From the human T2T-CHM13v2.0 reference genome, Homo sapiens: a DNA stretch of 64,000 nucleotides. Position 1 is the first letter of the stretch. Every line of letters begins with the position of its first letter. The notes below the pieces were generated by a model. It saw only the letters and a program-made list of their open reading frames with translations, did not search any database and was not told the origin of the DNA. The stretch is taken from assembly GCF_009914755.1 (NCBI RefSeq), contig NC_060930.1, one strand, 5' to 3'. Both the position numbers and the translations under genes were made by a program. This document shows, one piece after another, positions 40,301-47,226 of this stretch.

Positions 40301-43300
40301 TAACAATACTAACCTTAAATGTAAATGGGCTAAATGCTTCAATTAAAATACACAGACTGGCAAATTGGTGTGTTGTATTCAAGAGTCCCATCTCATGTGC
40401 AAAGACACACATGGCCCAAAATGAAGGGATGGAGGAAAATTTACCAAGAAAATGGAAAATAAAATCCTAGTTGCAATCCTAGTCTCTGACAAAACAGACT
40501 TTAAACCAACAAAGATCAAAAAAGACAAAGAAGAGGATTACCTAATGGTAAAGGGAACAATTCAACAAGAAGAGCTAACTATTCTAAATATATATGCATC
40601 CAATACAGGAGCACCCCGATTCATAAAACAAGTTTTTAGAGATGTATAATAGACTCCCACACAATAATATTGGGAGACTTTAACACCCCACTATCAATAT
40701 TAGACAGATCAATGAGACAGAAAATTAACAAGGACATTCAGGCCTTGAACTCAGCTCTAGATCGAGTGGACCTAATAGACATCTACAGAACTCTTCACCC
40801 CAAATCAACAGAATATACATTTTTCTCAGTGACACATGGCACTTATTCTAAAATTGACCACATAATTGGAAGTAAAACACTCCTCAGCAAATGCAAAAGA
40901 ACTGAAATAATAAAAACAGTCTCAGACCACAGTGCAATCAAATTAGAATTCTAGATTAAGAAACTCACTCAAAACCACACAATTACATGGAAATTGACCA
41001 ATGTGCTCCTGAATGTAAATAATGAAATTAAGGTAAAAATCAAGAAGTTCTTTGAAACCAATGAGAACAAAGAAACAATGTACCAGAATCTCTGGGACAC
41101 AGCTAAAACAGTGTTAAGAGGGAAATTTATGGCACTAAATAGACAGCTATAAAGATCTCAAATTGACACCCTAATACAGCAATTAAAAGAGCTAGAGGGG
41201 CAAGAACAAACTAATTCAAAAGCTAGCAGAAAACAAGAAATAACTAAGATTAGAGCAGAATTGAAGGAGATAGAGACAGAGAAAAGCCCTCCAAAAAATC
41301 AAGGAATCCAGGAGCTGATTTTTTTTTTTTGGAAAATTTAACAAAATAGACTGCTAGCTAGACTAATAAAGAAGAGAGAAGAATCAAATAGACACAATAA
41401 AAAAATGATAAAGAGGATATCACCACTGACCTCACAGAAATACAAACTACCATCAGAAAATACTATAAATACCTCTATGCAAATAAGCTAGAAAATTTAG
41501 AAGAAATGGATAAATTCCTGGACACATACACCCTCTCAAGACTAAACCAGGAAGACATTGAATCCATGAATAGACTTATAAAAAGTTCTGAAATTAATAG
41601 CCTACCAACCAAAAAAAGCACAGGACCAGAGAGATTGACATTCGAATTTTCCTGGAGGTACAAAGAGGGAGCTGGCACCATTCCTTCTGAAACTATTCCA
41701 AAAAATTGAAAAGGAGGGACTCCTCCCTAACATTTTATGAAGCCAGCATTTTCCTGATACCAAAACCTGGTAGAGACACAACAAAGAAAAGAAAGCTTCA
41801 GATCAATATTCCTCATGAACATTGATGCAAAAATCCTCAATAAAACATTGGCAAAGTGAATCCAGCAGCACATCAAAAAACTTATCCATCACAATCAAGT
41901 CAGCTTCATCCCTGGGATGCAAGGCTGGTTCAACATGTGTAAATCAATAAACATAATCCATCATATAAACAGAACCAAAGACAAAAACCATATGATTATG
42001 TCAATAGATGCAGAAAAGGCCTTTGATAAAATTCAACATCATTTCATGTTAGAAACTCTCAATAAGCTAGTTATTGATGGAAAATATCTCAAAATAATAA
42101 GAGCTACTTATGACAAACCCACAGCCAATATCATATTGAGTGGGCAAAAGCTGGAAGCATTCTCATTGAAAACCAGTACAAGACCAGGATGCCCTCTCTC
42201 ACTACTCCTATTTAATGTAGTATGGGAAATTCTGGTGAGGGCTCTCAGGCAAGAGAAAGACACAAAGGTTATTCAAATAGGAAGAGAGGAAGTCAAATTG
42301 TCTCTGTTAGCAGATGACATGATTTTATATTTAGAAAACCCCATCATCTCAACCCAAAAACTCCTTAAACTAATAAGCAACTTCAGCAAAGTCTCAGAAT
42401 ACAAAATCAATGTGCAAAAATGACAAGCATTCCTTTACACCAACAATAGACAAGCAGAGAACCAAATCATGAATAAAACCACATTCACAATTTCCACAAA
42501 AAGAATAAATACCTAGGAATACAGCTAACAAGGGATGTAAAGGACTTCTTCAACAACTACATACCACTGTTCAAGGAAATAAGAGAGGGCACAAACAAAT
42601 GGCAAAACATGCGATCCTCATGGATAGGAAGAATCAATATCCTGAAAATGGCCATACGGCCCAGAGTAATTTATAGATGCAATGCTATTCCCATTAAACT
42701 ACCATTGACATTCTTCACAGAATTAGAACAAACCACATTAAATTTTATATGGAATCAAAGAAGACCCCATATAGCTAAGATAATTCTAAGCAAAAAGAAC
42801 AAAGCTGGAAGCATCGTGCCACCTGACTTCAAACTATGCTCCAAGGCTACAGTAACTTAAACATCATGGTACTGGTACAAAAACAGGCATATAGAGCAGT
42901 GGAACAGAACAGAGACCTCAGAAATAACACTGCACCTCTACAACCATCTGATCTTAGACAAACCTGACAAAAGCAAGCAATGGGGAAAGGATTCCCTATT
43001 CAATAAATGGTGCTGGGAAAACTGGCCAGCCATATGCAGAAAACTGAAACTGGACCCCTTCCTTACACCTTGTACAAAAATTAACTCAAGATGGATTGAA
43101 GACTTAAATGTAAAACCCCAAACCCTAAAAATCCTAGAAGAAAACCTAGGCAATACCATTTAGGACACAGGCATGGGCAAAGACTTCACGATGAAAACGC
43201 CAAAAGCAAATGCAACAAAAGTCAAAATTGACAAATGAGATCTAATTAAACTAAAGAGCTTCTGCTCAGCAAAATAAACTATCATGTGAATGAACAGGCA

Positions 43301-44203
43301 ACCTAAAAATGGGAGAAAATTTTTACAATCTACCCATCTGACAAAGGTCTACTATCCAGAATTTACAAGGAACTTAAATTTACAAGAAAAAAATAAAAAA
43401 CCCTGTGAAAAAATGGGCAAAAGATATGAACAGACACTTCTCAAAAGAAGACATTTATGTGGCCAAAAAATGAAAGAAGCTCAACATCACTGATCATTAG
43501 AGAAATGCAAATCAAAACCGCAATGAAATACCATCCCATGCCAATCAGAATGTCAATTATTAAAAAGCCAAGGAACAATATATGATGGTGAGGCTGTGGA
43601 GAAATAAGAACACTTTTACACTGCTGGCGGGAATGTAAATTAGTTCAACCATTGTGGAAGACAGTATGTCTACTCCTCAAGGATCTAGAACCAGAAATAC
43701 CACTTGACCCAGCAATCCTATTACTGGGTATATAACCAAAGGAATTAAATCATTCTACTATAAAGATACGTGAACACGTATGTTTACTGCAGCATTATTT
43801 ACAATAACAAAGTCATGAAACCAACCCAAATGCCCATCAATGACAGACTGGATAAAGAAAATGTGGTACATATACACCATGGAATAATATGCAGCCATAA
43901 AAAGGAATGAGATTTTGTCCTTTACAGGGACATGAATGAAGCTGGAACCCATCATCCTCAGCAAACTAACACAGGAACAGAAAATCAAACACCACATGAT
44001 CTCACTCATAAGTGGGAGTTGAACAATGAGAACATATGGACACAGAGAGGGGAACAACAAATACCAGGGCCTTTTGGGAGGTGTTGGTAGAGGGGAGGGA
44101 ACTTAGGATGGGTCAATAGGTGCAACAAACCACCATGGCACATGTATACCTATGTAACAAACCTGCACCTTCTGCACATGTATCTTGGAACTTAAAAAAA
44201 GAA
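37329..44203 (+). mobile_element. Full-length L1PA8A-like element inserted in the ATF1 retrocopy 3' UTR
   Basis: GGGGTGGGGCCAAGATGGCCGACTAGAA start; degenerate ORF1/ORF2 ([13 protein letters not shown]); 3' 'gggaacttaggatgggtcaataggtgc'; TSD AAAATCTTCTTGA (37316-37328) / AAAAACTTCTTGA (44204-44216). Confidence 0.93.
37906..38598 (-). mobile_element. Internal L1 ORF2 fragment, antisense, inside the L1PA8A 5' UTR
   Basis: Encodes [20 protein letters not shown] and [21 protein letters not shown]...DAEKAFD; no poly-A; GTCCCA duplicated at both ends. Confidence 0.9.
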
Positions 44204-45385
44204 AAAAACTTCTTGAAAAAACTTTGGTATGAATCTTCAGAAGGCTTTTTTAAAATGGCATTTTAAGAGCCTGTGAACATTCCATTCTATTAAAACATAA
44301 CAGATTATGTAATGAATATTTAATGGCATACAGAATATAGAATTAAAACAAAAAATTTATTATGTATTCTTAGAAAACCAACATTACCAGAGTAAGCAAA
44401 AACCAACTATTTAAAAGTAAAGCTAATTTTTTAAAACAGTTGTTTTTGACTACTTATCAAGTTAGTAAACTTGATAGTAGTAGACTACTTATCAAGTTAT
44501 TATACAATCAAATATACTTATTGAGGTAGTATTGAGTATTGCCTGAGTATTGCCTGGAGGCAGGTTGGTAGGTAGTCAAAGAAAACTGTTTAAAAATGTT
44601 ACAAAATCACCGTACTTCATTCATGTACCTTAGATGCCTTTTAGAACAAGACCTCAAAAATAATTAACCCAGTCTTGAAAATCTTCTCAAGTCCAACAAA
44701 CAAACTCTTAAAACCCCATTTTAAAGACTTGACAATAGAACAAGTATATATAATGAAAACACATAATTTATATGTTTACTAATTTAATGGGTTTTCATTT
44801 ACATTTGTAATTTAGAATTTGTTGGCGGAAATAAAATACACACACACACATAACTGAAAACGGTAAATTTCAGGAACTAGAAATGCAATCCTATGGTATA
44901 AATTAATTTGTTTTTAAAAATATAATTTACCAAATTTTATCTTCTCTGCCACTTTGGATTGACAGCTGTTGTTATTTAGAAAATTCAGATTGCTGAGAGT
45001 TTATTTCTTGCTTCTTGAGTATGTTTAATTTTTACAAAGCTTTCATTCATGCCAGTAGCTGCCTTGGGGTCATTTTCTACTTAATCTTCCATCACCAAAT
45101 ATATTGTATAAGATGTTTATCCTTGAGTTGCAAAAGCTTAAATAAAAAGTTTCACTTTTAAAGTTTTAATTTATAAAATTCCACTAAAATTTTATTTAAT
45201 TTTTATGAAGGTCCACAATAATATCTTCTTTCTTAAGAATCAAGCACTTTTATTCAAATCAATATTCTTCAGTTTTTAACTCTTCTATTAGAGTTTTATT
45301 TTTATTTTTCATAACTATAACTCAATTTTCTAGGCCTTTCACATATTCTTTCTTTCTCCTTTGATATTCTGAAGTGGCTTTTCTT

Positions 45386-45687
<302 letters not shown>

Positions 45688-47226
45688 TCAAGTGGCTTTT
45701 CTTATCTTGTCTGAAATATTTTAGCTGTTCTTTGTTGTTTACTCTTCCATAGATTTTAGAAGCAACTTGTCAAGTTCATCAAGCAACCTGTTTTTCATTA
45801 ACCTTATTTCTCCTTTCAACTGGGGGTCTTCTGTCTTATTTGTTTGGTATGTAAGAGTCACAGGAGATGTCATCATCATAGTTTGTGGCAGAGAAGTAGT
45901 TGAAGGCAGTTTGGATCTGATATATCTGCCTATCACCTGATGCAGTCTGTACAACCAACTGATTGCTGGATGCAAGTATTTGCTGTCCATCAGGGACCTG
46001 CATATGCTGGAGAATAGTTGTACCTTGCTGAGTATTGCCTGAATTTGTCATGGTTAATTATGTCTGAAGTCTCTGTACTCCAGCTGTGCCTGAACTGGCC
46101 AATGGTGAGTCTCCACTTGAGACAATGGCAATGTACTATTTGCTGCCCTTCTGATAGATAGGAGTGGGAACAGACAGAAGTGACAGCAAAAACTCCAGGG
46201 TTTTCTCCATCTCCTTTTCTGCCCCATATATCTTCAGAAGATAGGTCTTTTAAAATTTTTCTGTAAGATGAATGCCGTGCTAGGATCCTGTAGGCTTTCT
46301 GTAAAGAGCCTAAGCTGTCAGATGGGTCCTGAGACTCCTCACCTTCTGATAAAGATCATACTATTGGCACATGTGGTGGGTGAATTACAGAAGACTGAGC
46401 TGTCTGGATGACACCCTGAACCTGTACTTGCTCTCCAGGAAGAGGTACCATTGTCATTAGTACAGATCATCTTAGTGCCATCTGTTTAGTAATATGAGAA
46501 ATATGAGCTCCCTGAACTGCTGAACCAGGTTGAGATGCTGTCTCTGATGTGTTACACTTGTGAGAATCTTCCATAATCAACTCTTGGGGGTCAAGTGGGG
46601 TGAAGAGAATTAGTGTCACTTACCAGCCAGCTGTCCTAGACTACCTTTTCCTTACCAGTTAGGACTGCCACTGGCATCCCTCAACCACATTTTATATTTT
46701 TGATGTCACAATGTGCATTTTTTGCATTGTGTAGTTTTTAAAACTTATTACAACTATTATTGTTTTTAATCATTTTGTATTTTAACCGTCATACTAAATA
46801 TATGAATGATTTATATACCACCATTAGAGTATTAGAGTATGTGGTATTTGACTGCATATTTACTTTTACCAGTGAGATTTATGTATTCGTATTTTCCTGC
46901 TACTAGTTAGCATCCGTTACTTTCAGCTTGACGTGCTTCCTTTAGCATTTTTTTGTGAGACAGGCCTGGTGGTAATAAACTCCCTTAGCTTTTATTTATC
47001 TGAAAAAGTCTTTGTCTCTCCTCTATTTCTAAAGGACAGCTTTGCCATTTAAAGTATTCTTGAATGACAGTTTTGTTTTTTTTATTCAGCACTTTGAATA
47101 TATAATCTCAGTCTCTCCTGGCTCATAAGGTTTATATTGAGAAGTGTGCTCCTGGCATTGTTGGGACTCCTTTATCTGTAATATTATTTTCTCTTGATGC
47201 TTTAAGGAGTCTCTCTTTGTTCTTGA

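What the first reader, a model, noticed from the sequence alone, without database searches (positions are those of the whole stretch)
45701..45787. 87-nt stop-containing segment before the bZIP: an ATF1 analogue of CREB exon W?
Seen (minus strand): ...ATG AAA AAC AG | GTTGCTTGATG...GACAAGATAAG | A AAA GCC..., an 87-nt insert inside the Arg codon of MKNR/EAA, giving [19 protein letters not shown]. Known: this codon is the last exon junction in CREB-family genes, and CREB1 has a testis-specific exon W there that terminates translation and removes the bZIP. Retrocopies derive from germline mRNA. Inference: a fossil of a bZIP-less germline ATF1 isoform (cassette exon or extended donor; the segment starts GT and ends AG).
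Basis: partly seen in the sequence, partly recalled or inferred. Interest (0 to 1): 0.75.

Follow-up and report, generated by a model that had tools for sequence, protein, structure and literature searches.

The report
LINE-1 fragment at ATF1 pseudogene exon junction
An 87-base piece of an old LINE-1 element sits exactly on the last exon junction of a dead retrocopy of ATF1; it is most likely a fossil of a mis-spliced or alternative ATF1 transcript, but its source is missing from today's human ATF1 gene.

Summary
On the minus strand, 87 nt (window 45701-45787) lie between the last base of ATF1's penultimate coding exon and the first base of its last exon. They read [23 protein letters not shown]. 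This junction has the same position and phase in human ATF1, CREB1 and CREM.

The 87 nt have no homologue in the ATF1 last intron (best forward score 13.5, reached by 315 of 500 shuffles). Nor do they have one on the sense strand of a 50-kb ATF1 locus, or elsewhere in the T2T genome.

The segment is an old LINE-1 ORF2 fragment in sense orientation. It aligns colinearly, at the same ORF2 place, to 14 of 30 L1 copies at E<0.01. None of 100 shuffles did so. It has no forward-strand match in the CREB1 or CREM last introns.

Best reading (about 0.55): the retrocopy was made from an ATF1 mRNA carrying an exonized L1 piece, and the source was later lost. Chance insertion exactly at a junction is unlikely but not excluded. 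A conserved, regulated counterpart of CREB exon W is not supported. Interest is low to moderate.

The parts
45701..45787 (-). 87-nt insert on the junction between the penultimate and last ATF1 exons. It is an old LINE-1 ORF2 fragment in sense orientation, roughly equivalent to ORF2p residues 835-865. First in-frame stop at 45741-45739.
   Evidence: sequence, translation. (colinear hits to 14 of 30 L1 loci at E<0.01; 0 of 100 shuffles gave an anchor hit). (the neighbouring L1 peptide matches only LINE-1 ORF2p chains, residues 820-848, at weak E 0.1-0.38).
45788..45945 (-). Retrocopy of the ATF1 penultimate coding exon, ending ...LMKN and the first two bases of the R codon.
   Evidence: window 45786-45945 = C12:50777436-50777597, 87.7% over 162 nt. 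The last 2 aligned nt are the shared GT of the insert and the intron start.
45948..46590 (-). Retrocopy of the upstream ATF1 exons, contiguous and intronless, including one 5'UTR exon at 46483-46590.
   Evidence: four blocks at 84.2-87.1% to C12 exons at 50755554, 50759068, 50772608 and 50777166; 46483-46590 = C12:50743291-50743398, 90%.
45383..45687 (-). Alu inserted 14 nt into the last-exon sequence, with a 17-A tail. The flanking direct repeat AAGAAAAGCCACTT lies at 45703-45690 and 45384-45371.
   Evidence: sequence read directly. (two Metazoa_SRP sub-threshold hits at 45398-45552 and 45572-45686, which is how an Alu shows up). (multiple Alu matches).
44586..45384 (-). Retrocopy of the ATF1 last exon: the rest of the bZIP, now with 2 TGA stops, plus the 3'UTR.
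   Evidence: = C12:50782794-50783600, 81.5% over 811 nt; protein match 60% with 2 TGA.
44204..44447 (-). Further 3'UTR of the retrocopy, after a 138-nt gap in homology.
   Evidence: = C12:50783606-50783843, 84.6% over 246 nt.

Best explanation
ATF1P1 is an old processed pseudogene. It was reverse-transcribed from an ATF1 mRNA in which an 87-nt (or thereabouts) piece of a sense-oriented LINE-1 ORF2 fragment, then lying in ATF1's last intron, was spliced in as an extra exon between the penultimate and last exons.

That exon splits the basic region after ...LMKN-R. In today's sequence it stops translation after 15 extra residues, so the product would lack half the basic region and the whole leucine zipper.

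The L1 piece has since disappeared from the human ATF1 intron. Either it was deleted, or it belonged to an insertion allele that never became fixed.

Shown: exact junction placement, L1 identity and orientation, and absence from the present human ATF1 locus. Inferred: that it arrived by splicing, that it lay in the intron, and that it was later lost. Nothing shows it was a regulated or functional isoform; splicing noise on an L1-bearing intron fits equally well.
For: (1) The insert lies exactly on the exon-exon junction, with no ATF1 base lost or duplicated.
(2) It has exon-like ends: a first base G after AG, and last bases AAG.
(3) It is an internal ORF2 fragment with no poly(A) and no L1 3' end, so it is not an ordinary L1 insertion.
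(4) 8 of 22 aligned L1 copies carry AG immediately 5' of the position equivalent to the segment start (up3 = AGG or AAG in the listing). That could be a ready-made acceptor.
(5) The ATF1 last intron still holds L1-like pieces, and all 12 of 12 intronic hits are in sense orientation, so sense L1 sequence has resided in this intron.
(6) The segment matches the plurality base of 22 L1 copies at only 59 of 87 positions and ranks 21st of 23 sequences. The rest of the retrocopy is 81.5-90% identical to its parent. This is a weak hint that the L1 piece was already old when incorporated.
(7) No source was found near the pseudogene. The best match in the 64-kb window is 26 nt at E 0.076, and the neighbouring L1 at 42500-43991 scores only 12.5-14.
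Against: The prediction that the segment maps to the parent intron fails in human. The forward best local score in the last intron is 13.5, reached by 315 of 500 shuffles. The forward best in the 50-kb locus is 17.0, against a shuffle mean of 16.9. A copy that diverged as much as the retrocopy did should have scored roughly 28-38 (my estimate).

No L1 sequence adjacent to the segment's ORF2 coordinates remains in the intron. The surviving pieces map 839-1439 nt further 3' in L1.

Only 1 of 22 L1 copies has GT just 3' of the segment-equivalent end, so a donor site would have had to arise by mutation.

No other species and no RNA data could be examined.
Confidence: 0.55

Rival explanations
1. 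Later insertion into the already integrated pseudogene. A short L1-derived DNA or cDNA fragment was captured during double-strand-break repair or by replication template switching, with 2-nt AG microhomology, and landed on the former exon junction by chance.
For: The fragment has no poly(A), no target-site duplication and an internal L1 origin, as break-repair captures do (mechanism recalled, not read here). AG is shared at both ends. No GT follows the equivalent position in 21 of 22 L1 copies.
Against: It requires a hit exactly on one of 6 junctions, about 1% by my estimate. No ATF1 base was lost or gained. No candidate donor copy was found in the 64-kb window or by whole-genome search (self only), though that search can miss copies near 70-80% identity.
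Confidence: 0.2
2. One reading: a conserved, regulated, testis-type cassette exon of ATF1 that makes a bZIP-less protein, the counterpart of CREB1 exon W.
For: Exact junction placement and an in-frame stop after 15 residues. The junction is shared by ATF1, CREB1 and CREM. Stop-containing testis exons of Creb exist: the Creb gamma exon is discussed in passages of PMC3240583.
Against: A conserved exon should still be in the human intron, and it is not. The segment is transposon-derived. It has no forward-strand similarity in the CREB1 or CREM last introns (forward scores 16.5 and 20.5). The best CREB1 score on either strand, 17.5, is reached by 57 of 200 shuffles. None of 4 mouse Creb gamma primers was found with 5 or fewer substitutions in the human CREB1 3' 24 kb. 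That is weak evidence, because the primers are mouse. The location of exon W could not be verified.
Confidence: 0.07
3. Template switching by the L1 reverse transcriptase during retrocopy formation: from ATF1 mRNA to an L1 RNA for about 87 nt, and then back.
For: The inserted sequence is L1 in sense orientation, and L1 RNA is present wherever retrocopies are made (general knowledge).
Against: It needs two switches that return to the very next ATF1 base, and exactly at an exon junction, which has no mark in a mature mRNA template. The segment looks more diverged from L1 copies than a then-active L1 would be (59 of 87; weak).
Confidence: 0.05

Closest known systems
Processed pseudogenes as fossils of splice variants (Shemesh et al. 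2006 PNAS; I saw only its entry in the reference list of PMC5470649; content recalled; PMC1360558 not held)
   Same: An intronless retrocopy carries extra sequence exactly at an exon-exon junction, recording an mRNA form other than the canonical one.
   Different: In the usual case the extra sequence maps to the parent's intron. Here it does not map anywhere in the human ATF1 locus.
LINE-1 exonization (PMC2176070 and PMC10901741, abstracts seen in the search listing)
   Same: An intronic L1 supplies splice sites and a short exon that disrupts the host reading frame.
   Different: The abstract of PMC2176070 stresses antisense-strand sites in mouse L1. Here the piece is sense-strand ORF2, and the event is inferred from a fossil, not seen in RNA.
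CREB1 stop-containing testis exons (W, gamma). Creb gamma appears in passages of PMC3240583; details of exon W are recalled only.
   Same: A short extra exon with stop codons would truncate a CREB-family activator before or within the bZIP.
   Different: There is no sequence similarity on the sense strand of the CREB1 or CREM last introns. The segment is L1-derived, absent from present-day ATF1, and I could not confirm that any CREB exon uses this junction.
Endonuclease-independent or break-repair capture of L1 fragments (recalled; no paper read)
   Same: A short internal L1 fragment without a poly(A) tail or target-site duplication.
   Different: Such captures have no reason to fall on a former exon junction, and they often delete target bases. 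None is lost here.

Membership tests
Processed pseudogene (retrocopy) of ATF1 | Exons of the parent are contiguous and colinear, with no introns | tested here: met
   seven blocks from the 5'UTR exon to the 3'UTR, 81.5-90% identical to C12 exons and adjacent in the window.
Processed pseudogene (retrocopy) of ATF1 | Poly(A) tail and target-site duplications at the ends | tested here: inconclusive
   the 3' end at about 44204 runs into T/A-rich sequence and another repeat. I did not identify a flanking direct repeat.
Fossil of an alternative splice form (cassette exon) | Extra sequence exactly at an exon-exon junction | tested here: met
Fossil of an alternative splice form (cassette exon) | Extra sequence maps to the corresponding parent intron, flanked by AG and GT | tested here: not met
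   Human only; forward best 13.5, reached by 315 of 500 shuffles; 50-kb locus forward best 17.0.
Fossil of an alternative splice form (cassette exon) | Exon present in ATF1 transcripts or introns of other species | not testable with these tools
   Only the human T2T genome is held, with no RNA data.
LINE-1 ORF2-derived sequence | Colinear similarity to many L1 copies at one and the same L1 position | tested here: met
   the seed L1 peptide has 9850 first-look candidates; 22 of 30 loci have a hit at the anchor, 14 at E<0.01, best 2e-6; 100 shuffles gave a mean of 0.16 loci at E<0.01 and none at the anchor.
LINE-1 ORF2-derived sequence | The matched copies are ORF2 coding sequence | tested here: inconclusive
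   all 5 PDB hits of the 35-aa peptide are L1 ORF2p or its RT core, but E is 0.1-0.38; the 76-aa CREB1-locus peptide found nothing.
Ordinary (target-primed) L1 insertion | L1 3' end, poly(A) tail and target-site duplication | tested here: not met
   an internal ORF2 piece with no A tail and no flanking repeat.
Homologue of a CREB1 or CREM alternative exon | Sequence similarity on the sense strand of the CREB1 or CREM last intron | tested here: not met
   forward scores 16.5 (CREB1) and 20.5 (CREM); shuffle maxima 23.5 and 21.0. The CREM antisense match of 23.5 is on the wrong strand.
Homologue of a CREB1 or CREM alternative exon | A known CREB exon (W or gamma) occupies this same junction | tested here: inconclusive
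   0 papers. Ruppert 1992 not held; no mouse gamma primer found with 5 or fewer substitutions in the human 24 kb.

The most novel reading that the evidence does not exclude
The retrocopy is the only surviving record of an L1-derived exon in the last intron of ancestral ATF1. That exon cut the basic region in two and gave a bZIP-less ATF1 in germline or early-embryo cells. If the same L1 piece still serves as a spliced, stop-bearing exon in ATF1 of other mammals, the CREB/ATF1/CREM family would have acquired bZIP-removing exons more than once, here from a transposon. A variant of this reading: the L1 belonged to an insertion allele that was never fixed, so the pseudogene preserves part of an extinct allele.
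Probability: 0.1. Interest if true: 0.55.

Novelty: new member of a known kind. Interest (0 to 1): 0.25.

Why it matters
If the splice-borne reading is right, this is a small worked example of a pseudogene preserving both an extinct transcript form and an intronic transposon piece that the parent gene has since lost. It has some use for reconstructing ancestral transcriptomes and for understanding how sense-strand L1 in introns damages genes. It says nothing about present-day human ATF1 regulation, because the source sequence is no longer in the gene. It also corrects the local annotation: ATF1P1 is about 2.4 kb long (44204-46590), not 0.8 kb.

Tried and rejected
- **Extended donor or acceptor:** rejected. 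The intron starts gtaggtagtaaaatcg and ends catatttag, unlike the segment's ends.
- **13-nt exact match in the intron (L011 2070-2082):** no extension in a semi-global alignment (score 1.5), so chance.
- **Best 50-kb-locus match (reverse strand, C12:50790855-50790926, score 23.5, 0 of 200 shuffles):** turned out to be another L1 ORF2 piece downstream of the gene on the other strand. It gave the L1 lead but is not a source.
- **Neighbouring L1 at window 42500-43991 as template:** rejected (scores 12.5-14).
- **CREB1 and CREM last introns:** no sense-strand match. The CREM antisense match of 23.5 (0 of 200 shuffles) is not L1 and is left as probably compositional.
- **Mouse Creb gamma primers on human CREB1:** not found.
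- **PDB search with the segment's own translation:** not possible because of its 2 stops.
- **Literature:** 'ATF1P1' occurs in 4 papers, which by title are association or gene-list studies; none was opened. 'exon W' as a whole word with CREB: 0 papers. PMC556599, PMC2278003 and PMC1360558 are not held.
- **Rfam:** only Alu-type sub-threshold hits.

Full report
**Observation**

Read on the minus strand, window 45788-45820 ends ...GAAATAAGGTTAATGAAAAACAG. It is followed by 87 nt (45787 down to 45701) that begin GT and end AG, and then by AAAAGCCACTT. The notional frame reads [19 protein letters not shown], with a second stop six codons further on.

The parent gene was found in the same genome on contig C12. 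Five coding-exon blocks and the last exon match the window at 81.5-87.7% identity, and a 5'UTR exon matches at 90%. The retrocopy therefore spans window 44204-46590, far more than the annotated 45259-46051.

In the parent, the penultimate coding exon ends ...ATGAAAAACAG|gtaggtagtaaaatcg, and the last exon begins ...catatttag|AGAAGCTGCT. The insert thus lies exactly on the exon-exon junction, with no ATF1 base lost or repeated. A shared AG makes three placements equivalent.

The same junction, in the same phase, exists in human CREB1 and in CREM before both of its alternative last exons.

The 87 nt were compared with the ATF1 locus.
- Word-7 blastn against the 6.2 kb holding the last intron gave only a 13-nt exact match. 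It does not extend.
- Smith-Waterman alignment against the forward strand of the intron gave 13.5, a score reached by 315 of 500 shuffles.
- Against 50 kb around ATF1, the forward best was 17.0, against a shuffle mean of 16.9 (SD 1.5, max 22.0).
- Whole-genome searches with the 87 nt, and with 111 nt including flanks at E up to 10, returned only the window itself. That search can miss copies at 70-80% identity.
- The segment continues neither the 5' nor the 3' end of the intron. An extended donor or acceptor is therefore excluded for the present human sequence.

Given that retrocopy and parent differ by 10-18.5%, an intronic copy should be roughly 70-75% identical to the segment and score about 28-38. 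That figure is my estimate. I conclude that the source is absent from human ATF1.

**What the segment is**

The one above-noise match in the 50-kb locus scored 23.5, a value no shuffle out of 200 reached. It lay on the opposite strand, 8 kb beyond the last exon. A similar-looking piece turned up in CREB1.

The ORF over the ATF1-locus piece reads ...IPAGFFFVNIDKLILKFI. Its only matches among solved structures are five LINE-1 ORF2 protein or RT-core sequences at residues 820-848, with weak E-values of 0.1-0.38. The same peptide has 9850 first-look candidates in the genome.

Against the 30 L1 loci fetched with it, the 87 nt align over nearly their whole length (for example positions 1-87 and 6-86). 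The alignment is always at the same L1 place and in sense orientation. In numbers:
- 22 of 30 loci have a hit at the anchor.
- 14 of these are at E<0.01 and 11 at E<0.001; the best is 2e-6.
- Identity is 65-70%, and there is one off-anchor hit at E<0.01.
- One hundred shuffles of the segment gave on average 0.16 loci at E<0.01, and never one at the anchor.

The segment is therefore an old LINE-1 ORF2 fragment, sense with respect to the ATF1 transcript. It has no poly(A), no L1 3' end and no flanking direct repeat of its own.

**How it got there**

*Splice-borne origin.* An ordinary L1 insertion is excluded by the segment's anatomy. A random later capture of an L1 fragment is possible, but it must hit one of six junctions to the base, which I estimate at about 1%. 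A cassette exon carried by the template mRNA explains the position at once, and transposon exonization in introns is well documented (abstracts seen in the listing).

Some details fit this reading:
- AG lies immediately 5' of the equivalent position in 8 of 22 L1 copies.
- The ATF1 last intron still holds L1-like pieces, and all 12 of 12 intronic hits are in sense orientation.
- The segment agrees with the plurality base of 22 L1 copies at only 59 of 87 positions, ranking 21st of 23. This weakly suggests it was already old when incorporated.

Other details do not fit:
- The source is missing from the human intron.
- The remaining intronic L1 pieces come from 839-1439 nt further 3' in L1.
- Only 1 of 22 L1 copies has GT after the equivalent end.

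I therefore hold the splice-borne origin at about 0.55. It needs a later loss of the L1 piece, either by deletion or because the insertion allele was never fixed.

*Rivals.* Later capture stands at about 0.2. Double template switching by the L1 reverse transcriptase stands at about 0.05. The neighbouring L1 at window 42500-43991 is not the template (scores 12.5-14), and the 64-kb window holds no better candidate.

**Consequence for the protein, if it was an exon**

Translation would stop 15 residues after ...LMKNR. The product would lack the second half of the basic region and the whole zipper. The stop lies 38 nt before the last junction, which by the usual 50-55-nt rule (recalled) would not trigger nonsense-mediated decay.

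The stops may be younger than the retrocopy. Relative to most L1 copies the segment has a 2-3-nt gap that shifts it out of the ORF2 frame. Whether that gap predates the retrocopy cannot be told.

**Comparison with CREB exon W**

The CREB1 and CREM last introns show no sense-strand similarity to the segment:
- Forward scores are 16.5 for CREB1 and 20.5 for CREM.
- The best CREB1 score on either strand, 17.5, is reached by 57 of 200 shuffles.
- A CREM antisense match of 23.5 (0 of 200 shuffles) is not L1. It is on the wrong strand for an exon, and I regard it as compositional.

Passages of PMC3240583 show that a testis-spliced Creb gamma exon exists. Its mouse primers were not found in the human CREB1 3' 24 kb. 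The library holds no paper with 'exon W' and CREB, and the primary paper is not held. By recall, exon W lies upstream of the bZIP exons, not at this junction.

The analogy is therefore at most functional, a stop-bearing extra exon, and not one of homology or position.

**Verdict**

The thing is a transposon-derived insert on an exon junction of an old, dead retrocopy. It most likely records an aberrant or alternative ATF1 transcript whose source is gone. It belongs to known kinds (retrocopies as transcript fossils, L1 exonization), has no bearing on present human ATF1, and is of low to moderate interest. Orthologous loci in other mammals would settle the question quickly.

Noticed in passing
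window 44204-46590 (-): The ATF1P1 annotation (45259-46051) covers only about a third of the retrocopy. Homology to ATF1 runs from a 5'UTR exon (46483-46590) to the 3'UTR (44204-44447), with a 138-nt gap in homology at 44448-44585.
   Followed up: partly
window 45383-45687 (-): An Alu with a 17-A tail is inserted 14 nt into the last-exon sequence, flanked by the direct repeat AAGAAAAGCCACTT. The repeat overlaps the end of the 87-nt segment by 3 nt, but this does not show which event came first.
   Followed up: partly
window 42500-43991 (+): A long, old L1 ORF2 stretch lies just beyond the retrocopy's 3' end on the opposite strand (59.8-69.4% identity among the six top-scoring hits, over up to 1542 nt, to the fetched L1 loci). 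It is not the source of the 87 nt.
   Followed up: yes
L011 1823-5203 (ATF1 last intron, C12): All 12 L1-like hits in the intron are in sense orientation and come from the 3' part of ORF2 or beyond, though they are not colinear. The intron also carries about six Alus. Sense L1 in introns is usually under-represented (recalled).
   Followed up: no
L027 9183-9258 (C10:35239183-35239258, CREM last intron, antisense): A 76-nt stretch about 600 nt upstream of CREM exon Ia matches the reverse complement of the segment with score 23.5 (0 of 200 shuffles reach it). It shows no L1 similarity and is probably compositional (T-rich), but this is unexplained.
   Followed up: partly
window 46677-46760 (-): Just upstream of the retrocopy lies a dispersed repeat with 19 other genomic matches at 76-92% identity. 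The family was not identified.
   Followed up: no
window 45420-45554: The sub-threshold Rfam hits to mir-1268 and mir-3135 lie inside the Alu and reflect Alu-derived miRNA families, not genes here.
   Followed up: no
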